A stretch of 64,000 bases of DNA, taken from IMG/VR virus record IMGVR_UViG_3300029288_000110, positions 1 through 64,000 of that record. The stretch is one strand, 5' to 3'. This DNA comes from a virus (taxonomy: Duplodnaviria; Caudoviricetes). The translations under genes were made by a program, and so were the position numbers. This document shows, in pieces, positions 12,683 to 42,683 of this stretch. The notes below the pieces were generated by a model, which had not been told where the DNA came from, searched no databases, and saw nothing but the letters and a program-made list of their open reading frames with translations. Numbering within the stretch: the stretch's first letter is position 1; each line of letters begins with the position of its first letter.

Positions 12683-14956
12683 TTGGCTAAAGGTAAAGAA
12701 ATATCAACCCTGTTCATAACCATCGGCCTCGACGATAAAGATATGACGAAGGGCCTGAACAAAGCGCAGAAAGAAATCAAGGTCTGGAGCAAAAATTTCG
12801 CCATCGCCGGGGCCGCTATTACCGCGGCGCTAGGACTGGCTACTAAGGCGGCTCTGGAGGAAGAGGTTGGCGTCAACCGCCTGCGCAATGCCTTGAAGAA
12901 CGCGGGGTCCGATTATAATACATTATCCGGGGAGATAGAAAAGAATATTGCGGCGATGCAGGCCTCTACTAATTTCTCGGACAGTGAACAAAGAGACGCC
13001 CTGACCAATCTTATCGGGATACTGGGGAGTTATGAAAAGGCCGCTGCCGCTTTACCGGCAGCTTTGGATGCGGCAGCGTTTTCCGGACGGAATTTGAGCA
13101 GTGTGGTCTTTACGCTTGGGCGCGCCCTGTCCGGTGAGGTCAACACCGCGGAGAGCGTAGGGATAACCTTTAACGAAACAGCAGATTTCGGCACCCGTCT
13201 GAAGCAGGTTCTAGAACGGGTGGGTGGTTCCGCCAAGGCATCGGCCGACCCGTTAACACAGTTAAAGAACGTTACCGGAGATTTGGTGGAGGCGATAGGG
13301 GGATTTCTTGTTCCCATCCTCCGCACGCTGGTAGAAAAAATAATCCCAATTATTAAAGGTGTGCAGGATTGGATAGAGAAAAACGAGGGGTTATCGAAGG
13401 CATTAACAATAAGCGCGGCGGCGGCAGGCATATTTTTAGGCGTTATGGGCTCGCTCGGCATGATAATGGCGCCTCTAGCTAAGGGATTAACCCTTGTCAT
13501 TGTAACTTTGGGATGGTTGTCCAGAACATATTTGGGACTCATGGTTAGAGCCATTGCCTATAACGTGATACTCGTAGCACAGACAGTGATCGCTAAAGCA
13601 GCCGCTGCGGCGATACGCTTCTTGAGTCTGGCCATGATAACAACTCCCTGGGGAGTTGTCATCACGGCAGTACTGGCGCTGGGATATGCCGTTTACGGGC
13701 TGGTGAAACTTTTTCAATCGAATACGGATAGCGTAAACAAGAACGCCGCGGCCACGCGGCAGCTCACCGCGGAGCAGAAAAAGCTCAATGATGAATACCA
13801 GAAGCTCAACGAGGCGCAGCGGAAAAACGAAGCGTCATTAACCAATATCCAGAACGCCTACAATGCCACCAAAGAATCAAATGCCGGCATGAACCGCGAG
13901 ATTGAGAACACGGAACATGCGCTGGCTAACAGCCGTTACGAACTCGGCAAAGCCCGTGACGCCCTGGATGCAATACAGAAAAGCTATGACAACGCAGCGC
14001 AGCAGGTCAATGAATTCGAGAGCGCTATCAGCGATGCTAACCGCGAGCTGGAAAAACTTACCAACCCGCGCCTCGAGGGGATGCAGGAATTCGAAGACCA
14101 GATACAAACGCTACAGACAAAAATAAACGATCTTGAAGTAAAGCGGGCGGAAATCCGTGTAAAGGGCGGGGACACCGAAAATATAGACAAAAAAATTGAA
14201 GAACTGCAAAACCAGATAGACCTGCTGGAGGCAAAAGAAACCGCCGCATTCGACGATATACTTTATAAAACCAAGGAATCCGTGGAAACAATCCAGGGAT
14301 TAAATGAAGAAATTGCGCCGGAGGCGGTTACCGAACGCGTATCCGAACTCGGTATTCTATTGCAGGGGCTGGCAGCCGGGCGGCTAGCGGCGCAGGTAAA
14401 TCTCGACGCGCAAACGGTAGCCTTGAACAATCAGAAAACGGTGGTGGCGGAACTCGAAGCGCAGGAAGCCGAACACCAAGCCAGGCTGGAAGAAATAAAA
14501 AACTACGTAGAAAACATACTCTGGTCTTATCAGATGCAGATACGCGCCACGGAAGATATCATAAACAATACCAATACGGAAATAAGCCGGGTGGAACAGC
14601 TCAAGGCGGCGGCGGATAAAACGCTGGACGGCATGCTCGAGGATTCCATCCTGATAAAAAACAATCTCGCCAATACCGGCGTCAATCCCGTCAGCAATAC
14701 ATTGACAATACCCTCTTATGCCGGCTGGGAAGGCCCGGTCCCCGGCCCGGTGGGCAAGCCTTATCTGGCGATGGTTCACGGCGGGGAAATCATCAGCCAG
14801 AGCGGCGCCGGCGGAATCACCAATGATGCGTCCGCTATTCGCAGCGCCATCAGGGATGGCCTGGCCGGTATGACAATCACCGTGAATGTGGGCGGCAAGG
14901 ACGTGGCGGCGGTTATCAGCCGCGAACAATATTCCAAAAAACAGCAGAGGATTTAA
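12683..14956 (+). CDS. tail tape measure protein
   Basis: long helical/coiled-coil protein with hydrophobic segments; C-terminal GPVG..AMVHGGE. Confidence 0.88.
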   Translation: MAKGKEISTLFITIGLDDKDMTKGLNKAQKEIKVWSKNFAIAGAAITAALGLATKAALEEEVGVNRLRNALKNAGSDYNTLSGEIEKNIAAMQASTNFSDSEQRDALTNLIGILGSYEKAAAALPAALDAAAFSGRNLSSVVFTLGRALSGEVNTAESVGITFNETADFGTRLKQVLERVGGSAKASADPLTQLKNVTGDLVEAIGGFLVPILRTLVEKIIPIIKGVQDWIEKNEGLSKALTISAAAAGIFLGVMGSLGMIMAPLAKGLTLVIVTLGWLSRTYLGLMVRAIAYNVILVAQTVIAKAAAAAIRFLSLAMITTPWGVVITAVLALGYAVYGLVKLFQSNTDSVNKNAAATRQLTAEQKKLNDEYQKLNEAQRKNEASLTNIQNAYNATKESNAGMNREIENTEHALANSRYELGKARDALDAIQKSYDNAAQQVNEFESAISDANRELEKLTNPRLEGMQEFEDQIQTLQTKINDLEVKRAEIRVKGGDTENIDKKIEELQNQIDLLEAKETAAFDDILYKTKESVETIQGLNEEIAPEAVTERVSELGILLQGLAAGRLAAQVNLDAQTVALNNQKTVVAELEAQEAEHQARLEEIKNYVENILWSYQMQIRATEDIINNTNTEISRVEQLKAAADKTLDGMLEDSILIKNNLANTGVNPVSNTLTIPSYAGWEGPVPGPVGKPYLAMVHGGEIISQSGAGGITNDASAIRSAIRDGLAGMTITVNVGGKDVAAVISREQYSKKQQRI

Positions 14957-16357
14957 ATGTCAAACAGCATTAATTATAACGGCACGGATTTAAGCGCCTA
15001 CGGCCTGAACCTGCTCAATTACGATGAAATCTTTGAGCAGCTGACGGAATCCGCGCAGTTGAAAAACCAGGCTTACCAGCTGGGGAAAGTGCGGCCCGCC
15101 AGGATAATAACGCTGGATGTGAAAATCATCGCTGCCAACCTGGCCGACCGTCAGTCTTATCTGGACAGCATCAAAGGCGCGCTCAACGTCAACGAGCCGG
15201 CGGTACTGAAAATAAATTCCATCACCGACCGTTACTGGCTGGCCGTGGGCATAATAAGCGGGGCGCCCGTTTCCGCGAGGGTCTGGTCCGGCACGATAAT
15301 ATTTACCTGTTTTGACCCGGACGCCTACGATAACAGCGAGACCACGAGCTCGCACACCATAGATGATGACCCGGAAAACTTTAACGAGGTGGTAGGCGGC
15401 ACGGCGGAAACAAAGCCGGTTTATACCCTGACCAAAAAAACAGATATTTCCCTGGATTTTGACGGCGTGGATGACTATGTAAATGTTCCCCATAATGCCA
15501 ATCAGTTATTAACTACAGGCGGCACAATCAGAGCATGGGTGCAAGTTGAAGGGTTGGGAGAAAATAACGCAGGAATGATTGTAGATAAATCCACCGGAAC
15601 AAATGGTCAGAATGGTTTTTATTTACGCGTTGCCGCTACTAATAAATTTGCCTGTGTTATTAACAACGGAACGATTAAATATTCCGCCGAGAATTCATTT
15701 ACCCCCGGCGATGGTATTTGGCACCATGTGGTTGTCACCTGGGATGCTACCGGTTTGGTCACATTCTATGTTGACAGTGCTCAATCCGGTACACCCGGTA
15801 TTTCCGCTGACCCTGCGGGTATCACTACCACCAACGATTTGAGAATAGCCAACCGTTCCGGTGCGACTGACAGGACTTTTAACGGCAGGATAAAAGGTGT
15901 CTATATCGGTTCCGGACAATGGTCGGCGGCGGATGTGGCAGCGGATTACGCGCAGGGACATCAAGGTTCGCCCACCCCTTATAACATTACCGGCATCGTT
16001 GGCCTGTGGCAACTCGATGATAATACCGGCACGACTGCGGAAGATAGTTCCCCCGCAGGTAATGACGGCACTATCAGCGGCGCAACCTGGGTGGATGTCT
16101 CGCCGGAGGGTGCTGCCACCGTTATCATTAATAACACCACCGCTGAAGAAGAATTCTCCTGCACAGTCACGCTGGTAGCAGATGACATTCTTGTGATTGA
16201 TACCGAGACGATGGTGGTCACGCTCAATGACACGGAGGTCATGAATAGTGTACCTGTCACTAGCCAATGGCCGCGGCTGCTGCCCGGCACGAACTCCTTT
16301 ACGGTAGAAGGATTCAGCGGAACGATGGCTACGGTTTACCGGAAACGATATCTATAA
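14957..16357 (+). CDS. distal tail protein (Dit) with LamG-like insertion
   Basis: DRYWLA, FTCFDP, WPRLLPGTN..YRKRYL Dit motifs around LDFDGVDDYV..WHHVVVTWD LamG domain. Confidence 0.85.
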   Translation: MSNSINYNGTDLSAYGLNLLNYDEIFEQLTESAQLKNQAYQLGKVRPARIITLDVKIIAANLADRQSYLDSIKGALNVNEPAVLKINSITDRYWLAVGIISGAPVSARVWSGTIIFTCFDPDAYDNSETTSSHTIDDDPENFNEVVGGTAETKPVYTLTKKTDISLDFDGVDDYVNVPHNANQLLTTGGTIRAWVQVEGLGENNAGMIVDKSTGTNGQNGFYLRVAATNKFACVINNGTIKYSAENSFTPGDGIWHHVVVTWDATGLVTFYVDSAQSGTPGISADPAGITTTNDLRIANRSGATDRTFNGRIKGVYIGSGQWSAADVAADYAQGHQGSPTPYNITGIVGLWQLDDNTGTTAEDSSPAGNDGTISGATWVDVSPEGAATVIINNTTAEEEFSCTVTLVADDILVIDTETMVVTLNDTEVMNSVPVTSQWPRLLPGTNSFTVEGFSGTMATVYRKRYL

Positions 16358-16368
16358 AGAGGTGAAAT

Positions 16369-17343
16369 ATGGTTGAAGAGAGTCTGAAAATAACAGAACT
16401 ACCACAGCATACTACGCCAGTATCAGCGGATAAACTGGCTATAGTTGATAGCGTACTGGGACCAACTAAATACATTACTTATGCTGATTTAACAAAGAAT
16501 ATACGTTTAATACATGCCAACGCAGTTACCCCGCAAACAGCGACTACAAACACAGTATTACACATTGCGCAGGCTGATGCTGCCGTAGGCAGGTTGCTGG
16601 TAGATGTTTATGGCACGAGCACGTGCGCGGTATTTGAGGGACGGGCTGCGAGAGGTACGGCGGCATCTCCTTCAGCATTGCAAAGCGGCGACCAGATAAC
16701 AGAGATATCAGCTCACGGTTATGGAGCAACGGGGTATGCTCCATCGGGAAGAGGTCATGTCCGCTTTGAAGCTGATGGTAATTGGACAGATACCAGTAAC
16801 CCAACAAGATTATATATTGATGTTACCCCCAATTCGTCAACTGTTCCTGTAGAGGCCATGCGTATCACTAATGCCGGATGGATAGGTATAAATCAAAACA
16901 CTCCAGTCTGCCGTGTCCATATAGTAGGAACGCACGTTGGAGGCACAGGCATAACAAAATTCCAAGGGACGACACACGCGTTTATTTCCCTTGATTCGGC
17001 CACTGGAAGTGATACGGGAATTATCTTTAAAGAAAACAATACATCCCGTGCTCAAATAGCCGTACCGACAGGGAATAATTTTATTGAGTTCAACGTAACT
17101 TCTTCATATACAAAAGCTGCACGTGTTGATACGAAGGGTATCACTTTTGTCACAAGCATAGATTCGGGGGCCGTAGCAGATCAGGTGTCAATCTGCGGTT
17201 ATGATATTTCCGCAGGCCACAGGGCTCTATCTCTTTCGTGCGAAGAAGTGGTTGTTACGGAAGTGGACGAAACTAAATTCTCCCACAAATTACCAGTGAG
17301 AATCAACGGAGTTACCTATAACATCATGCTCTGTGCTACTTAA
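16369..17343 (+). CDS. tail fibre / receptor-binding protein
   Basis: KITELP N-terminal anchor, MRITNAGWIGINQNTP fibre repeat, position in tail-tip module. Confidence 0.7.
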   Translation: MVEESLKITELPQHTTPVSADKLAIVDSVLGPTKYITYADLTKNIRLIHANAVTPQTATTNTVLHIAQADAAVGRLLVDVYGTSTCAVFEGRAARGTAASPSALQSGDQITEISAHGYGATGYAPSGRGHVRFEADGNWTDTSNPTRLYIDVTPNSSTVPVEAMRITNAGWIGINQNTPVCRVHIVGTHVGGTGITKFQGTTHAFISLDSATGSDTGIIFKENNTSRAQIAVPTGNNFIEFNVTSSYTKAARVDTKGITFVTSIDSGAVADQVSICGYDISAGHRALSLSCEEVVVTEVDETKFSHKLPVRINGVTYNIMLCAT

Positions 17344-17350
17344 GGAGTTT

Positions 17351-17557
17351 ATGAACGAAAACGAAAAAAACGCTTTGATACTTTTAACCCAATTATGCCA
17401 GGAATCTCAAAACGAACTTAACGCCCGTATAGCTTCTAGGCAAAGTTTTATAGAGTTATTGGAAACAAAATACAATTCCAAATTTAACCCACAAACAGGC
17501 GAGTTTGTAAAATCAGTTGACGGACATCCTGACAAATCCGTTCCTGTCAACCCATAG
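17351..17557 (+). CDS. small hypothetical protein (possible fibre chaperone)
   Basis: ATG 17351 after AAGGAG, directly after fibre gene. Confidence 0.55.
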   Translation: MNENEKNALILLTQLCQESQNELNARIASRQSFIELLETKYNSKFNPQTGEFVKSVDGHPDKSVPVNP

Positions 17558-18031
17558 ATAGCCGGGCTTATGCGGGTCTGATTTCGGGAGATTAGGCATT
17601 TCAATATTACCATCAGAATGAATTATAAAACGCCTTTCAGGGGATAATGATCCTTGAGCGGTGGTATCAATAAATACACAAGTGGGCTGGCTTTCATCCG
17701 TCCAGTCCTCTTCTGCCTCAATAGCAACATGGGCAACACCGTGATTACCATATCCTGTAAGCCCGTATCCGTGTGCTGATATTTCGGTAATTCTATCGCC
17801 CTTTTTCAGCGGTGTTTGAATTTCCTGCGTGCCGTTTGCCCGGCGGCCGGTGAAAGCCGCACACCCGCCGTAGGTATCCAGCGTTATACGGGCATCCGAA
17901 TTATCATTCCCCTGCACATAATCAACGGTATAAAGAGGCCCTGTATTTTTCATAGATTGAACGCTAGTAGCGCAGGACGAAATAACCAGGATTGCCATGA
18001 TTAAAGCCATTAACCAATATTTCATATTCAT
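17513..18031 (-). CDS. lipoprotein paralogous to the tail fibre domain (moron)
   Basis: signal peptide MKYWLMALIMAILVISS-C (lipobox); shares ITEISAHGYG and surrounding ~100 aa with ORF 16369..17343. Confidence 0.8.
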   Translation of the reverse strand: MNMKYWLMALIMAILVISSCATSVQSMKNTGPLYTVDYVQGNDNSDARITLDTYGGCAAFTGRRANGTQEIQTPLKKGDRITEISAHGYGLTGYGNHGVAHVAIEAEEDWTDESQPTCVFIDTTAQGSLSPERRFIIHSDGNIEMPNLPKSDPHKPGYLWVDRNGFVRMSVN

Positions 18032-18060
18032 TACCTCTTGCCTGTTTAACTTTTGAAATC

Positions 18061-18069
18061 ATTATACCA
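18061..18069 (-). promoter_or_regulatory. extended -10 promoter for the lipoprotein gene
   Basis: TGGTATAAT on - strand ~30 nt upstream of the ATG, then GAGG RBS. Confidence 0.5.
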
Positions 18070-18100
18070 TTTTTGTCAATTATATTAAGGCGGTTAATTC

Positions 18101-20470
18101 ATGCCTGATTATCTCTTAAAAGAAGATGGCGGATATCTGCTTAAAGAAGATGGCGGAAAAATAATTCTCAACGGCGCTTTCGCCCCGCCCCCAACGGGCG
18201 TCACCGCTACGAAAGGCACATATACCGATAAGGTCGTTATTACCTGGACGAAAAGCACTGGCGCCACCGGCTATAAGGTATACAGGGGAGCGGTACTGGT
18301 TGACACTCTGGGAGACGTGGCGACTTATGACGATACCGGCGCGGACGCGCCGACAATTACACCCGGCACGGCATCAGCGACAGACGGCGATTATTCCGAT
18401 AAAGTCGTCTTAAGTCTGGCCGGTGAATCGGTCGCCAACGGCACCACGCACACCTATACCGTTATAGCGGTCAATGATGAAGGGGAGAGCGGGCCGAGCG
18501 AATCCGATACCGGCTACCGCGGGCACGGCTCGCTAACTTACCAATGGCAGCGCAGCGCGGCGGATAGTGACGCTAATTATTCTAATCTTACCGGTGCCTT
18601 GACCGACCCTTATAATGATACCACCGGGCCCGGTGACGGCACCGGAAGGTATTACAGGTGTGTGCTTAACGCTACCGGCGCGACGGAGGAAACGTCATCC
18701 AGCGACCGAGGTATCCGCGCCCATAAACTAAAGCCACGCAATATCTCGCAGGTGGTAGTGGTAAACCCGGACGGAGAGGTATTAAGTTTTTGTCCCAATG
18801 CCTGGGGTATCAGCCCGGAAACCCGCGTTAACGAGCTGGACTCGTTAACCTTTTGCCTACCAACAGACAGCCATGCCGAGCCCTATCTGGAATACCCCAA
18901 CGAGGTCTGGCTGGTCAAAGATGGAATTCTCAAAAACGAATATAAAATATTTGATGTGGAGCGGATATTGGCGGGCGGCGCAGCCTATTTGAAGGTCACC
19001 TGCAAACATTACGGCTATGTCCTCGTCAAGGACAAACCCATCCTCTCGTACAATAAAACAATCGCGGATGGCATAAATACTACCGGCCATCTGACGGCGT
19101 TCCTTGCCTATCAGGAAACGGCGAGGGTGACGCTCGGCGGCGTCAGCCCTTTCCTGGAAAAAATCATTGCGGTTAACATCGCCAGCGTCACCGATATCTG
19201 GGAGGCCTTCAAGCTCATTCGGGATACGGTCGGGGGGTATTTATACTGGGAGATAAACCCGGCCACGCCGCTGGTGCGTAAAATCTGGCTGTTGAATGAT
19301 ATCGGCGTCAACACCGGCCAGGAAATTAGAACAGGCAAAAATCTCTTCAATATAAACCATAAAACATCGTACGATGATTTTTATAACCGGCTATATGCCA
19401 CCGGCAGCAGTGTGACTTTAAGCGGCAAAACTTTTACCAAGGTCAGCATGGAAAAATCCTCCGACGCCACTTATGGTTACCTCAAATTATTAGAGCAGTA
19501 TGGGGCCTATAAAGGCTGGACAGGGTTGGGGAATGCGCTTCCCACCGGCATGTATATCTATAAGCCTGGCGGCACCTGGAATAATCCAAGTTCTATAGTC
19601 TCCGCTATTGGCTGGGCGCATCCCTCATATGCTATCGATAATAATGAGTCCACCATAGCCTCCTATCCAAAGTGGACAGCATATTCATGGTCATCTTATC
19701 TTGAAGTTGCCATTACGTCTACTGTTTCTACGCAGGTTAAATGGTATCACAATCATTATTTCAGCGGCGGGCTACCGCAATCATTTTTATATGAAGTAGA
19801 TATTTATTATGGCGGCGCCTGGCATAATATTTATACCGGCGCACCCGGTGTTGATGACGGCTTTACAACTACCACCTTCGACCAGCAGACCATTACCGGC
19901 GTGCGTATGCGTGCCTATAACATGGGCATGGACGCCGGAGAATATTGTGCCGTTAAAGAGATTTATGTCTGGAATACCAGCGGTTATATCGATGAGACCT
20001 CAAAATTCGTACAGGGCGCGGATGAAGCCACTGTCCGCTGCGCTATCGCGGATTATGACGCTTCCGCGCCATACGTGATTACCTACTACCATGCAGATTA
20101 TCTGATCGACCTGGAGAGCGTGGACGGGCACGATACGCTGGCTGCCGGCTGGCGCAGTAATATCATCACCGGCAATGAAGCATTTTCCGCCACGGATGTA
20201 GATGCCTTGCTATCACTAGGCAGAATAGAACTTACAGAACGGAAGACACCGCGCGTCTCTATTGATATCAACGCCATTGACCTCTCGGTAGAAGAAGGGC
20301 TAGAGTTCGAGGAGCTGGCGTTGGGCAACACCGTAAAAATCATTGCGGAGGAAATTAATGTGGCGGAGACGCAGCGCATCGTCGGTATCATCAAGCCGGA
20401 CCTTGACCACCCTGGCAAGGTAGAAATAGATATCGGAAATAAGACCCTGGATATTATCGATGAAATTTAG
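18101..20470 (+). CDS. tail tip / Tal-like protein with N-terminal FN3-like and internal binding domains
   Basis: PTGVTAT..ITWTK..GYKVY FN3 pattern; IRTGKNL..NRLYATG and LGNTVKII tail-endopeptidase-family motifs. Confidence 0.75.
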   Translation: MPDYLLKEDGGYLLKEDGGKIILNGAFAPPPTGVTATKGTYTDKVVITWTKSTGATGYKVYRGAVLVDTLGDVATYDDTGADAPTITPGTASATDGDYSDKVVLSLAGESVANGTTHTYTVIAVNDEGESGPSESDTGYRGHGSLTYQWQRSAADSDANYSNLTGALTDPYNDTTGPGDGTGRYYRCVLNATGATEETSSSDRGIRAHKLKPRNISQVVVVNPDGEVLSFCPNAWGISPETRVNELDSLTFCLPTDSHAEPYLEYPNEVWLVKDGILKNEYKIFDVERILAGGAAYLKVTCKHYGYVLVKDKPILSYNKTIADGINTTGHLTAFLAYQETARVTLGGVSPFLEKIIAVNIASVTDIWEAFKLIRDTVGGYLYWEINPATPLVRKIWLLNDIGVNTGQEIRTGKNLFNINHKTSYDDFYNRLYATGSSVTLSGKTFTKVSMEKSSDATYGYLKLLEQYGAYKGWTGLGNALPTGMYIYKPGGTWNNPSSIVSAIGWAHPSYAIDNNESTIASYPKWTAYSWSSYLEVAITSTVSTQVKWYHNHYFSGGLPQSFLYEVDIYYGGAWHNIYTGAPGVDDGFTTTTFDQQTITGVRMRAYNMGMDAGEYCAVKEIYVWNTSGYIDETSKFVQGADEATVRCAIADYDASAPYVITYYHADYLIDLESVDGHDTLAAGWRSNIITGNEAFSATDVDALLSLGRIELTERKTPRVSIDINAIDLSVEEGLEFEELALGNTVKIIAEEINVAETQRIVGIIKPDLDHPGKVEIDIGNKTLDIIDEI

Positions 20471-37715: not shown

Positions 37716-38996
37716 ATGAACATCTTGAACTTGCCCGACTGGGAAGTCATAGAGCTTAAAGAGAGCGAGTACGATTACGCTATCCATGCCAAGTACACGC
37801 CGGAGCCGACCGCTTGTATCCGATGCGGGGTTATCGGGCAACTATACCGGCATGGTATCAAGAGGCAACGATTCATGGACTTACCAGTTCACAACAAGCG
37901 TGTTGGCTTGATAGTGCATCGGCAGCGTTACCTTTGCCGAGCCTGCAAAAAGACCAGCTTTCAACCATTGCCGGATGTGGCTGACCACCACTCGTCAACC
38001 AAGAGGCTTTTAGCCTACATCGGCAAGGAATCCATGAAGCGTACCTTTGTTGGGGTAGCCGATGATACCGGAATCCATGAGCGGACTATCCGGCGTTTAT
38101 TCGCTATCGAGGTAGCCCGATTAGACCAAGAGGTCAAATTCGAGACACCCCGATGGTTGGGGATTGATGAAGTTCACCTTGTAAAGAAGGCAAGGTGTCT
38201 CTTGACCAACGTGGAGCAACGGACTGTCATTGATATGCTGGCAACCAGAACAAAAGACGTGGTTAGCCGATACTTGTACCGGATGCCCGACCGCCAGTAC
38301 ATCGAGCTGGTGGCTATGGATATGTGGCAACCCTACAGGGACGCAGTAAGGGATATTCTACCGCAAGCCACAGTGGTCATAGACCGCTTTCACGTTATCC
38401 GGTTAGCCATTCAGGGCATGGACACGATACGAAAGGATACCAGGGCGAGCCTTACGGCACGTCAAAGCCGGACACTCAAGCGTGACCGCTATATTCTTTT
38501 CCATCGCCGGAGCGACCTTGACGAACAAGACCAGTTCATACTTGACCTGTGGTTAGGGCAGTTCCCTATGCTTGGCAAGGCGTATCAGTTCAAAGAGGAC
38601 TTCTGTGACCTCTGGATGGTCAAGGACAGGCAAGAAGCCATAGAGCGGTATGAAAACCTTAAGGCGAGCATCCCGACCGAGCTACAGCCCGCCTTCAAGC
38701 CTCTGACAACGGCTGTAGGCAACTGGACAGGCGAGATATTCGCATGGTGGGACCATCCGGTAACAAACGCTTATACAGAGGCCATAGCAGGGCTTGTGAA
38801 GCTAACCAACCATGCAGGCAGAGGGTATTCGTTCAAGGCGATACGGGCAAAGTTGCTTTACTCTAACCTGCCGACCCCTCACAGACCAGTGTTTGACAGG
38901 TCATTGAAAGAGCGACCGCCCTTCATGCCACTGGAAGAAATTATAGATTACGGAGTTAAGTTTTCCACACTCCGCATAATGTTGGAAGGGGGATAG
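37716..38996 (+). CDS. ISL3-family transposase
   Basis: zinc finger CIRCG..CRAC, LGIDEVH, VAMDMWQPY, IDRFHV, TNAYTEA, GRGYSF. Confidence 0.96.
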   Translation: MNILNLPDWEVIELKESEYDYAIHAKYTPEPTACIRCGVIGQLYRHGIKRQRFMDLPVHNKRVGLIVHRQRYLCRACKKTSFQPLPDVADHHSSTKRLLAYIGKESMKRTFVGVADDTGIHERTIRRLFAIEVARLDQEVKFETPRWLGIDEVHLVKKARCLLTNVEQRTVIDMLATRTKDVVSRYLYRMPDRQYIELVAMDMWQPYRDAVRDILPQATVVIDRFHVIRLAIQGMDTIRKDTRASLTARQSRTLKRDRYILFHRRSDLDEQDQFILDLWLGQFPMLGKAYQFKEDFCDLWMVKDRQEAIERYENLKASIPTELQPAFKPLTTAVGNWTGEIFAWWDHPVTNAYTEAIAGLVKLTNHAGRGYSFKAIRAKLLYSNLPTPHRPVFDRSLKERPPFMPLEEIIDYGVKFSTLRIMLEGG

Positions 38997-41599: not shown

Positions 41600-42454
41600 T
41601 CACTCCCAGTCCTTTAAAAACGGATGGTATTTGAATATTTCTGCATCAACCTCCGGCATCCGGGGAGTGGTGTAGATATTCATCATTCCGCCGCCGGCCC
41701 ACCGCAAGAACTGATACACCCTTGTCTGGTCCAGGATACGCTTCCCATCCGCCCCCCTTAACTCATCCAATACCGTCGCCAGGCCATGGCGGACACCGTG
41801 GTAGCATTTTTTAGGAACGAATTTCACCCCGGCGACATTAGCTATCTCATGAAAAATGGAGAAGCGGCGATTATACCCCACGGGAGGATAAGTGTATTTG
41901 AACACAAAGGGGGCGATTTGCTCCGGCACGTCATGCTCCCGCAGCATACCGCCTTTCTCCGTATGGATGATGATGGTTTTCTTATACGGATGAATATCTT
42001 CCGACCGGACGCCAAAAAGTTCTCCGACCCGAAGGCCATATGTTGTCGAGAGCGCTATGGTGTTCAACCACTGGGGATTGGAGCTCTTCTTGGCAGTCAG
42101 TATGAGCGCCCGGATTTCTTCCGCACTGTAGGAAAAGCGTGAGGCGAGGTCAATCATCTGCCGGTTCACCTTGGGCAGCTTCACCGGCACCCTTAGCCCA
42201 TACATGCGGAAGAGGCAGCCTATCGGACCCCTGATGATGTAGTTTACATACGTTTGGTCTCGATTCTTCTTCAGATAGTCGAGATAGGTATAAAGCACAT
42301 CACGCTCCTGCCAGTTCTTTCCCTTGAGCCAGGTGAAGTAATCATCCACATGCGCCCTGTACTGGCTCTTGGTCGATTCGCTATAGTACTGGATTTCGTG
42401 CTCTAGCTCTTTAAATATGGACTTCCTGTCTGTTGGTATTTTTTCCGTAGTCAT
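41600..42454 (-). CDS. tyrosine recombinase/integrase
   Basis: YGLRVGE (R), EKGG (K), HGVRH (HxxR), LRW, IY catalytic set. Confidence 0.88.
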   Translation of the reverse strand: MTTEKIPTDRKSIFKELEHEIQYYSESTKSQYRAHVDDYFTWLKGKNWQERDVLYTYLDYLKKNRDQTYVNYIIRGPIGCLFRMYGLRVPVKLPKVNRQMIDLASRFSYSAEEIRALILTAKKSSNPQWLNTIALSTTYGLRVGELFGVRSEDIHPYKKTIIIHTEKGGMLREHDVPEQIAPFVFKYTYPPVGYNRRFSIFHEIANVAGVKFVPKKCYHGVRHGLATVLDELRGADGKRILDQTRVYQFLRWAGGGMMNIYTTPRMPEVDAEIFKYHPFLKDWE

Positions 42455-42470
42455 TACTACTCCTCTACCC

Positions 42471-42683
42471 TCAGCGTTTAAAAGTCTTCCTCTCATGCGG
42501 TTTCTTCCGCTGGTAAGTAGCCTCCAAGGAAGTCATCTTGGGATTCCAGTGATAATCAATCACCATCACATCACAACCCAGTTTCTTCCTGATAGCGCTT
42601 GTAACAGCGGAGGACCCGCACCCGGGCGCCTCATCAAATTCCTCCATGGTTATAGTTATCTTTTCCGTATCAATATATTTCAC
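42471..42683 (-). CDS. hypothetical protein
   Basis: GTG start after GGGAG, downstream of tRNA. Confidence 0.5.
   Translation of the reverse strand: MKYIDTEKITITMEEFDEAPGCGSSAVTSAIRKKLGCDVMVIDYHWNPKMTSLEATYQRKKPHERKTFKR

What the first reader, a model, noticed from the sequence alone, without database searches (positions are those of the whole stretch)
16369..18069. Antisense lipoprotein made from a copy of the phage's own tail-fibre domain: candidate receptor-masking exclusion factor
Seen: ORF 17513..18031 is the only credible minus-strand gene in the late operon. It has a lipobox (ISS-C), its own extended -10 and an RBS. By hand alignment it is about 48/103 identical to the middle of the fibre gene (GDRITEISAHGYGLTGY vs GDQITEISAHGYGATGY; WTDESQPT vs WTDTSNPT), with synonymous sites diverged. 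Established: phage lipoproteins such as Cor and T5 Llp block receptors, but are not known to me as paralogs of the fibre. Inference: a membrane-tethered mimic of the binding domain occupies the receptor, or acts as an adhesin, in infected or lysogenic cells.
Basis: partly seen in the sequence, partly recalled or inferred. Interest (0 to 1): 0.8.

Follow-up and report, generated by a model that had tools for sequence, protein, structure and literature searches.

The report
Lipid-anchored mini tail fibre in phage
A phage carries, next to its tail-fibre gene and on the opposite strand, a conserved gene for a membrane-anchored protein built from one unit of tail fibre. It may work as a shield against further infection, but that function is untested and only two copies are known.

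Summary
ORF 17513..18025(-) is a real gene of 170 aa (the second ATG is the likely start). It has a lipobox (VISS|C), an SD site and a TG-extended -10 promoter. It is 43% identical over 126 aa (E 2e-26) to residues 62-187 of the neighbouring 324-aa fibre. Third codon positions are near saturation.

The shared part is a widespread trimeric beta-helix fibre module, with about 2,200 relatives. Solved relatives are the Bdellovibrio MAT fibres (8OML, 8OL4) and the phage T5 pb1 receptor-binding "bullet" (4UW7/4UW8). The lipoprotein is a short linker, one module and an end cap. It is predicted to form an intertwined homotrimer.

It is an old paralogue, not a recent copy. One ortholog fragment (75-77% identity, dN/dS about 0.1) lies in the same arrangement (fibre, small ORF, antisense lipoprotein) in a phage with a different upstream structural gene. 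In this phage the three genes are a low-GC3 cassette in the slot between Dit and Tal. A close relative holds a single, different fibre gene there.

Receptor masking is plausible but unproven. The module serves as a shaft unit in MAT fibres, and the fibre has 135 more distal residues. No co-variation is visible and no expression data exist. The host is probably Dehalococcoidales. This scan had not noted the gene before.

The parts
16369..17343 (+). 324-aa tail fibre / receptor-binding-type protein in the slot between Dit and Tal. It has an N-terminal anchor of about 45 aa, a beta-helix module, and about 135 aa of distal sequence of unknown fold.
   Evidence: ORF. PHROG tail fibre hit. Homologs P0003-P0005 are 57-61% identical. 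The N-terminal anchor is shared with the 563-aa protein in the same slot of relative L063. PDB hit to 8OML over residues 66-187, E 6.5e-9.
16534..16929 (+). The trimeric beta-helix module of the fibre (residues 56-187). This is the part shared with the lipoprotein.
17333..17557 (+). orf74, a small helical protein of unknown function. Its 3' end overlaps the 3' end of the lipoprotein gene by 45 nt, convergently.
   Evidence: It has an ortholog, orf63 (about 43-45% identity), in the same position in L028/L029. No family hit.
17513..18025 (-). Lipoprotein gene: 170 aa plus stop. An upstream in-frame ATG at 18031 would give 172 aa.
   Evidence: dN/dS about 0.11 against ortholog fragment P0042.
17972..18025 (-). 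Signal peptide with lipobox V-I-S-S|C (Cys18).
   Evidence: Sequence read. It is the only lipobox among the query and its 150 best relatives.
17588..17944 (-). The single beta-helix fibre module of the lipoprotein (residues about 28-146).
   Evidence: AF2 model with pLDDT 82.5. Foldseek hits to 8OML, 8OL4 and 4UW7. PDB profile hit E 1e-33. Homotrimer model scores 0.97 against a best control of 0.00.
17516..17587 (-). C-terminal cap (residues 147-170), a motif of the form PNLP..DP..GYLWVD..G.VRMS. It is conserved in the ortholog and absent from the neighbouring fibre.
   Evidence: By eye it resembles the C-terminal ends of several fibres of the family.
18061..18088 (-). Promoter-like site TTAATA-16-(TG)n-TATAAT for the lipoprotein gene.
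18033..18039 (-). Shine-Dalgarno AAGAGGT, 7 nt before the ATG at 18025.
14957..16357 (+). Left flank: distal tail protein Dit with a Laminin_G_3 insertion.
18101..20470 (+). Right flank: tail-associated protein Tal. Homology to relative L063 resumes exactly at its start codon.

Best explanation
Shown:
- The minus-strand ORF is a real gene under purifying selection.
- Its product has a signal peptide with a lipobox, then a linker of about 10 residues, then one copy of the trimeric beta-helix fibre module, then a short end cap.
- Models predict an intertwined homotrimer. That makes it a three-fold lipid-anchored 'mini fibre' whose free end points away from the membrane, with the polarity a fibre has on a virion.
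- It lies in a three-gene cassette (fibre, orf74, antisense lipoprotein) that occupies the exchangeable fibre slot between Dit and Tal. The same arrangement recurs in a phage whose upstream structural gene is different.

Inferred:
- The gene is transcribed from its own sigma-70-type promoter, against the late operon. It would therefore be made early in infection or in a carrier state, not with the virion genes.
- The protein is lipidated by the host's Lgt and LspA and sits in the envelope.
- There it acts as a superinfection-exclusion or receptor-interference factor tied to the specificity of the fibre it travels with. It would engage the same envelope ligand that modules of this clade bind, so that further virions, or progeny on cell debris, adsorb unproductively.
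For: Gene reality:
- Homology to the fibre at E 2e-26 with saturated third positions.
- An ortholog fragment, P0042, is 75-77% identical, with dN 0.16, dS 1.5 and dN/dS about 0.11 over 74 codons.
- SD site, TG-extended -10 promoter and lipobox.

Fold:
- The profile matches 8OML at E 1e-33 and T5 pb1 (4UW8) at 2e-11.
- The AF2 model has pLDDT 82.5, and its top Foldseek hits are 8OML, 8OL4 and 4UW7.
- The homotrimer scores 0.97, best of 3 controls 0.00. In the tool's calibration 20 of 30 proteins solved as pairs of one chain reached the mark, against 1 of 23 solved as single chains. The runs share at least 98% of contacts and the partner's pLDDT is at least 94. Like trimers are solved, so the pass may reflect likeness only.

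Linkage to the fibre:
- Both known copies lie convergent to a fibre of the same clade with the small ORF between. L028 overlaps L029 by 231 identical bases.
- Cassette GC3 is 0.37-0.44 against 0.56-0.59 in Dit, Tal and TMP.
- Relative L063 (Tal 66% identical) has one different fibre gene in the slot and only 8 bp before Tal.
- Eleven residues are shared by lip and the fibre clade yet occur in under 20% of the family. A Cys aligned by BLASTP and absent from other relatives may be a twelfth.

Precedent:
- T5 Llp is encoded adjacent to the pb5 gene, and cognate exclusion lipoproteins sit beside RBP genes in many siphophages (PMC9586334).
- Soluble pb1(970-1263), of the same fold family, inhibits T5 infection by competition (PMC4690869).

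Host machinery: Lgt and LspA are present in genomes of the candidate host order.
Against:
- The module is a generic fibre unit. It serves as shaft in MAT fibres, where the tips carry the specificity (PMC10769870).
- The neighbouring fibre continues for about 135 residues beyond the module, and these may be its real tip.
- Most lip-fibre identities are family consensus.
- Lip sits on a long branch with changes at loop positions that are otherwise conserved in the family.
- Lip and lip' show no closer match to their own fibre than to other fibres of the clade.
- Fibres P0003 and P0005 have another gene downstream and no lipoprotein in the DNA available.
- If the ligand is an abundant surface glycan, stoichiometric masking by a lipoprotein is unlikely.
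- The host envelope type is only inferred.
Confidence: 0.4

Rival explanations
1. It is a conversion or 'moron' surface protein. In this reading the lipid-anchored mini fibre is an adhesin or envelope-modifying factor that benefits the carrier cell, for example by attachment to partner cells, particles or polysaccharide. It would play no role in excluding phages, much as lambda Bor is an antisense-oriented lipoprotein gene in a late region.
For: It has its own promoter on the opposite strand, a lipobox, and a trimeric fold used by adhesive fibres of cells as well as phages (PMC10769870). ParB and other accessory cargo on the record suggest a carrier lifestyle.
Against: Both known copies are tied to a fibre gene of one clade, in phages whose upstream genes differ. 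A general adhesin need not be. No full integrase was found, so lysogeny is unproven.
Confidence: 0.2
2. It is an entry blocker that does not touch the receptor. Like Ltp of Streptococcus phage TP-J34, which targets the tape measure protein, it would sit on the membrane and engage a part of the incoming tail tip or the DNA-entry machinery. The fibre-like fold would serve only as a stable trimeric scaffold.
For: In a monoderm host, as suggested by the Dehalococcoidales links, a lipoprotein lies on the outer face of the cytoplasmic membrane, exactly where the tail tip arrives. The lipoprotein's loops and end cap differ from the fibre's yet are conserved in the ortholog.
Against: There is no sequence or family similarity to Ltp, Sie or HK97 gp15-type proteins. 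Linkage to the fibre, rather than to TMP or Tal, is not explained.
Confidence: 0.15
3. It has a role in the producing cell, not in defence. For example it could be a membrane anchor that helps fibre or virion maturation or release. Or it could be a partner of orf74, with which it always co-occurs and overlaps convergently.
For: orf74/orf63 co-occurs with the lipoprotein rather than with a particular fibre C-terminus. The fibre here and P0003 share the C-terminus, but only this phage has orf74 and lip.
Against: The fibre folds in the cytoplasm and the lipoprotein is exported, so the two should not meet. Antisense placement would lower its expression when the late genes are read.
Confidence: 0.12
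4. It is a relic: an inverted, decaying fragment of a fibre gene, or the alternative arm of an invertible fibre segment as in Mu or P1, with no function of its own.
For: It is fibre-derived sequence on the opposite strand next to a fibre gene.
Against: The frame is intact, dN/dS is about 0.1 against an ortholog and synteny is conserved. It has its own start, SD site, signal peptide and promoter. No flanking inverted repeats beyond chance 15-mers were found, and no invertase was found. The homologous part is the middle of the fibre, not an exchangeable C-terminus.
Confidence: 0.03

Closest known systems
Phage T5 Llp (and Cor of T1/phi80/N15): receptor-blocking exclusion lipoproteins
   Same: It is a small phage lipoprotein encoded right beside the receptor-binding protein gene and exchanged together with it. 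Llp is 'adjacent and downstream to pb5', and cognate SE lipoproteins lie next to RBP genes in many siphophages (PMC9586334).
   Different: There is no sequence or family similarity. Llp and Cor are unrelated to their RBPs, and Llp acts from the periplasmic side of FhuA by allostery. Here the protein is a paralogue of a fibre module and is predicted to be a trimer. The host is probably not a proteobacterium. Function is untested.
[quoted passage not shown]
   Same: It belongs to the same sequence family and predicted fold and is predicted to form an intertwined trimer. Soluble pb1(970-1263) competes with T5 for the receptor (PMC4690869).
   Different: Those are long fibres of 1,000-1,400 aa with many modules, a virion or cell anchor, and either a separate tip or an S74 chaperone. 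This is a single module on a lipid anchor with no S74 domain. Only 1 of the 151 sequences inspected (the query and its 150 best relatives) has a lipobox.
Ltp of Streptococcus thermophilus phage TP-J34 (superinfection-exclusion lipoprotein of a Gram-positive host)
   Same: It is a prophage-type lipoprotein placed on the outer face of the membrane of a monoderm host. That is the likely topology here if the host is a Dehalococcoidales bacterium.
   Different: No homology was detected. Ltp has helical repeat domains and targets the tape measure protein (from my own knowledge of Bebeacua et al. 2013, not checked here).
Receptor interference by retroviral Env (for example Fv-4, enJSRV)
   Same: This is a conceptual match only: a membrane-anchored copy of the virus's own attachment protein expressed in the cell blocks entry of related viruses.
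   Different: It is a eukaryotic system with no homology, cited from general knowledge. No equivalent fibre-derived factor turned up in the phage papers searched.

Membership tests
Bacterial lipoprotein (Sec/SPII substrate) | N-terminal signal peptide with a basic n-region, an uncharged h-region and a lipobox [LVI][ASTVI][GAS]C, with the Cys at position 15-35 | tested here: met
   MKYWLMALIMAILVISS|C with Cys18 was read and checked by pattern. No SignalP run was possible.
Bacterial lipoprotein (Sec/SPII substrate) | The host has Lgt and signal peptidase II | tested here: met
   PF01790 (Lgt) was found in the Dehalococcoidales MAG G001. PF01252 (signal peptidase II) was found in 5 of 5 genomes of that order. 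The host assignment itself is only probable.
Bacterial lipoprotein (Sec/SPII substrate) | The lipobox is conserved in orthologs | not testable with these tools
   The only ortholog is a C-terminal fragment on a 639-bp contig.
Trimeric beta-helix fibre module (MAT fibres / T5 pb1 bullet domain) | Significant sequence match to solved members | tested here: met
   The profile matches 8OML at E 1e-33 and 4UW8 at 2e-11. The lipoprotein alone matches 8OML at E 4.5e-4. There are 2,217 relatives at E<=1e-3.
Trimeric beta-helix fibre module (MAT fibres / T5 pb1 bullet domain) | Same fold | tested here: met
   The AF2 model has pLDDT 82.5. Foldseek gives 8OML at E 1.7e-7, 8OL4 at 1.2e-5 and 4UW7 at 4.9e-5, all with probability 1.00.
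Trimeric beta-helix fibre module (MAT fibres / T5 pb1 bullet domain) | Intertwined homotrimer | tested here: met
   This is a prediction only. The score is 0.97 against a best control of 0.00. In the tool's calibration 20 of 30 proteins solved as pairs of one chain reached the mark, against 1 of 23 solved as single chains. Like complexes are solved, so the pass may come from memory.
Trimeric beta-helix fibre module (MAT fibres / T5 pb1 bullet domain) | Part of a long fibre attached to a virion or cell by an N-terminal anchor domain | tested here: not met
   It has a single module of 170 aa, and a lipobox replaces the anchor.
Llp/Cor-type receptor-blocking exclusion lipoproteins | Small lipoprotein gene adjacent to the RBP gene | tested here: met
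   PMC9586334 for the T5 arrangement.
Llp/Cor-type receptor-blocking exclusion lipoproteins | Sequence homology to Llp or Cor | tested here: not met
   No such family appears in Pfam, PHROGs, NCBIfam or PADLOC; the only PHROG match is a tail fibre family.
Llp/Cor-type receptor-blocking exclusion lipoproteins | Binds and inactivates the phage's receptor and excludes superinfection | not testable with these tools
   This needs an adsorption or plating assay. Host and receptor are unknown.
Invertible fibre segments (Mu G / P1 C type) | Flanking inverted repeats, an invertase, and alternative fibre C-termini without their own start | tested here: not met
   Only chance-level 14-32 nt inverted repeats were found. 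No resolvase or invertase was found. The ORF has its own start, SD site and signal peptide.

The most novel reading that the evidence does not exclude
A phage of an uncultured, probably peptidoglycan-less Dehalococcoidales host protects its cell with a lipid-anchored trimer derived from its own fibre lineage. The trimer would occupy the fibre's envelope ligand. That would be a bacterial-virus counterpart of retroviral Env-mediated receptor interference. It would be inherited as a swap-in 'fibre plus antidote' cassette.
Probability: 0.3. Interest if true: 0.8.

Novelty: new variant of a known kind. Interest (0 to 1): 0.55.

Why it matters
If the lipoprotein really interferes with adsorption, it would be the first phage exclusion factor I could find that was made by recycling a fibre module. 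It would also show that fibre and exclusion specificity can be exchanged together as one cassette.

That would give a sequence-based way to pair attachment proteins with their exclusion factors in uncultured phages. It would also provide a soluble probe, the mature trimer, for the unknown receptor of phages of Dehalococcoidia, organisms that matter for organohalide bioremediation.

If it is not an exclusion factor, it is still a rare case of a virion building block turned into a cell-envelope protein.

Tried and rejected
Searches for more copies of the lipoprotein:
- The word-indexed protein search at near and shorter lengths returned only the protein itself and P0042.
- IMG/VR, JGI metagenome and GTDB genome scans, with the protein and with alignments, found nothing new.
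- GenBank phages gave no DNA match and only 24%-identity hypothetical proteins.
- 201 Dehalococcoidales genomes gave no match.
- The records holding five fibre relatives contained only the fibre of G202.

Searches on orf74: the IMG/VR scan and the Atlas gave nothing usable.

Structure: the single-sequence fold was useless, with pLDDT 38. It was replaced by the alignment-based model.

Family libraries gave no name for the lipoprotein, only a PHROG tail-fibre match for it and for the fibre. A weak VirB7 hit (E 0.08) covers only the signal peptide.

Readings considered and rejected:
- Invertible segment, DGR or recent duplication. There is no DNA-level repeat between the two genes, third positions are saturated, and there is no invertase.
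- A heterotrimer with the fibre as a poison subunit. This was not modelled, because the fibre folds in the cytoplasm while the lipoprotein is exported, and a pass would reflect homology only.

Literature: two searches found no phage exclusion lipoprotein described as fibre-derived. This is absence in the library searched, not proof of absence.
Full report
**1. What is there**

The window is the first 64 kb of a 101,758-bp IMG/VR virus record. Positions 1-22 kb are a siphovirus late operon on the plus strand. It runs terminase, portal, major tail protein, tape measure (12683..14956), Dit (14957..16357, with a Laminin_G_3 insertion) and Tal (18101..20470).

Three genes lie between Dit and Tal:
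- a 324-aa fibre (16369..17343, +);
- a 74-aa ORF (17333..17557, +);
- the ORF of the finding, on the minus strand (17513..18031).

The second ATG, at 18025, lies 7 nt after the SD AAGAGGT and gives the 170-aa product that gene callers report. The N-terminus (MKYWLMALIMAILVISS|C) fits the lipobox rule. Upstream is TTAATA-16-TATAAT preceded by TG. That scan finds no more promoter-like sites than shuffles do, so it is supportive only. The ORF fills a gap between plus-strand genes. The other minus-strand ORFs of the region are antisense frames inside long genes.

**2. The similarity is real and reflects selection**

BLASTP of lipoprotein against fibre gives 43% identity over 126 residues, E 2e-26. 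Identity by codon position is 57/59/34%, with pN 0.42 and pS 0.74. There is no DNA-level inverted repeat between the two genes.

An exhaustive HMMER search found one ortholog, P0042. It is an 86-aa call on a 639-bp ENA contig and is 75% identical over residues 95-170, including the C-terminal tail that the fibre lacks. The first ~105 bp of that contig are a hairpin assembly artefact, because the same peptides are read from both strands.

Over 74 codons dN is 0.16, dS is 1.5 and dN/dS is about 0.11. The two fibres differ by dN 0.35. The relic reading is therefore rejected.

**3. What the shared domain is**

The lipoprotein has 2,217 relatives at E<=1e-3. Nearly all are long proteins with two to six copies of the unit.

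A profile of 32 relatives matches solved structures:
- Bdellovibrio MAT fibres Bd1334 (8OML, E 1e-33) and Bd2439 (8OL4);

With that alignment AlphaFold gives pLDDT 82.5. The best Foldseek hits are the same entries.

In Bd1334 the matching part is the 'full beta-helix' domain that precedes the adhesive tip (PMC10769870). In T5 pb1 the matching part lies in the intertwined 'bullet' that is the receptor-binding domain. As a free trimer that domain inhibits infection by competition (PMC4690869).

A three-copy model of residues 30-172 scores 0.97, with the best of three controls at 0.00. In the tool's calibration 20 of 30 proteins solved as pairs of one chain reached the mark, against 1 of 23 solved as single chains. 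The runs agree in at least 98% of contacts and the partner's pLDDT is at least 94. Because like trimers are solved, the pass shows likeness rather than proof.

The protein is thus a short linker, one module and a ~25-residue cap. By eye the cap resembles the C-terminal ends of several fibres of the family. Its polarity, with the anchor at the N-terminus and a free C-terminal end, is that of a fibre on a virion. Among the query and its 150 best relatives it is the only one with a lipobox.

**4. Relation to the neighbouring fibre**

Per-domain scores put the fibre clade among the nearest relatives: P0004 93.7 bits, P0046 91.6, P0005 83.8 and this phage's fibre 82.4.

In a tree of 71 modules, lip and lip' form a clade (100/98) on a long stem. 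The fibre clade is separate, and their sister relation is unresolved.

Of the ~48 identities, about 37 are family-wide consensus. Eleven are residues rare in the family but shared by lip and the fibre clade, for example E-x-S-A-H before GYG, and WTD-x-S-x-P-T where the family has G. A Cys aligned by BLASTP may be a twelfth.

So common ancestry with this fibre clade is likely. The split is old, predating the divergence of the two phages, and it is not a recent copy. Lip and lip' are no closer to their own fibre than to the others. With two cases, co-variation cannot be shown.

**5. The cassette**

L028 overlaps L029 by 231 identical bases. Together they read: a 540-aa-type structural protein as in L003, then fibre P0004, orf63 and lip' convergent. 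The same three-gene order therefore sits next to a different upstream structural gene.

In this phage the three genes have GC3 of 0.37-0.44, against 0.56-0.59 in Dit, Tal and TMP.

A relative with 66%-identical Tal (L063) has a plain 244-aa Dit. It then has one 563-aa protein with the same ~45-aa N-terminal anchor but an unrelated body, followed by Tal after 8 bp. DNA homology resumes exactly at the Tal start codon.

The Dit-Tal gap is thus an exchange slot for attachment proteins, and the lipoprotein and its promoter came in with this fibre type. Fibres P0003 and P0005 are followed by an unrelated ~108-aa ORF, and no lipoprotein is seen in the DNA available. orf74/orf63 co-occurs with the lipoprotein rather than with a given fibre C-terminus.

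**6. Host**

The evidence is weak but consistent:
- The ISL3 transposase of the record is 90% identical to one on a Dehalococcoidales MAG contig.
- The portal has 44-48%-identical relatives in genomes of that order.
- Tal has a 42%-identical, near full-length relative in genome G188 of that order.

Lgt and signal peptidase II are present in these genomes. No clear integrase was found, only a sub-threshold match at 41.9 kb, but ParB is present. The lifestyle is therefore open.

**7. Mechanism**

I take the structural reading as well supported (about 0.9).

Function is inferred. The best reading (0.4) is an envelope exclusion or receptor-interference factor coupled to the fibre. The grounds are:
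- the linkage to the fibre gene;
- independent, opposite-strand transcription;
- the envelope location;
- the Llp precedent for gene placement (PMC9586334);
- the pb1 competition result for this fold (PMC4690869).

Against it:
- The module serves as a shaft unit in MAT fibres.
- The fibre has about 135 distal residues of unknown fold.
- The lipoprotein's loops have diverged.
- Two related fibres lack the lipoprotein in the DNA available.
- Masking an abundant glycan would be stoichiometrically hard.
- There are no expression data.

The rivals are a conversion adhesin (0.2), an Ltp-like entry block (0.15), a role in the producer cell with orf74 (0.12) and a relic (0.03).

**8. Novelty**

I found no family name for the lipoprotein in Pfam, PHROGs, NCBIfam or PADLOC. 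Two literature searches turned up no described phage lipoprotein derived from a fibre module. I class it as a new variant of a known kind, the RBP-linked phage lipoprotein. It is rare, with two copies in the databases searched.

Noticed in passing
window 15460-15940 (Dit residues about 169-328); L003:7397-10240: The Laminin_G_3 insertion in Dit is closely similar in sequence to the N-terminal part of a 947-aa protein beside fibre P0005 in L003. It is absent from the 244-aa Dit of the close relative L063. Carbohydrate-binding modules thus seem to be exchanged among these phages along with the fibres.
   Followed up: partly
L063:3301-4992: In the relative phage the Dit-Tal slot holds a 563-aa protein. 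It has the same ~45-aa N-terminal anchor motif but an unrelated body, which I did not identify.
   Followed up: no
window 17164-17340 (fibre residues about 266-324): The last ~60 residues of the fibre (ending ...NIMLCAT) are conserved at 60-80% identity on at least 25 viral contigs, at the ends of fibres with quite different middle parts. This is a conserved C-terminal module of unknown fold with no PDB relative.
   Followed up: partly
window 18110-18157: A tandem 24-nt repeat at the start of Tal encodes YLLKEDGG twice. The relative L063 has the same duplication.
   Followed up: no
L028:1-105: The first ~105 bp of this ENA contig are the reverse complement of bases about 130-250 of the same contig. 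This is a hairpin assembly artefact that creates a false start for P0042.
   Followed up: yes
window 37716-38996: The ISL3 transposase is 90% identical to one on a 3.8-kb contig of a Dehalococcoidales MAG. Its first 30 residues are identical to a stretch in an Omnitrophota MAG. This is a useful but weak host clue.
   Followed up: partly
window 17513-17557: orf74 and the lipoprotein gene overlap convergently by 45 nt here, and by 4 nt in L028. No terminator-like hairpin was found on either strand. Late-operon readthrough must therefore run antisense across the lipoprotein gene, which suggests mutual transcriptional interference.
   Followed up: no
window 41600-42496 (-): The only recombinase-like signal on the record is a sub-threshold Phage_integrase match (E 1e-4, 18 bits) in a 298-aa ORF. 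It lies outside the siphovirus block.
   Followed up: no
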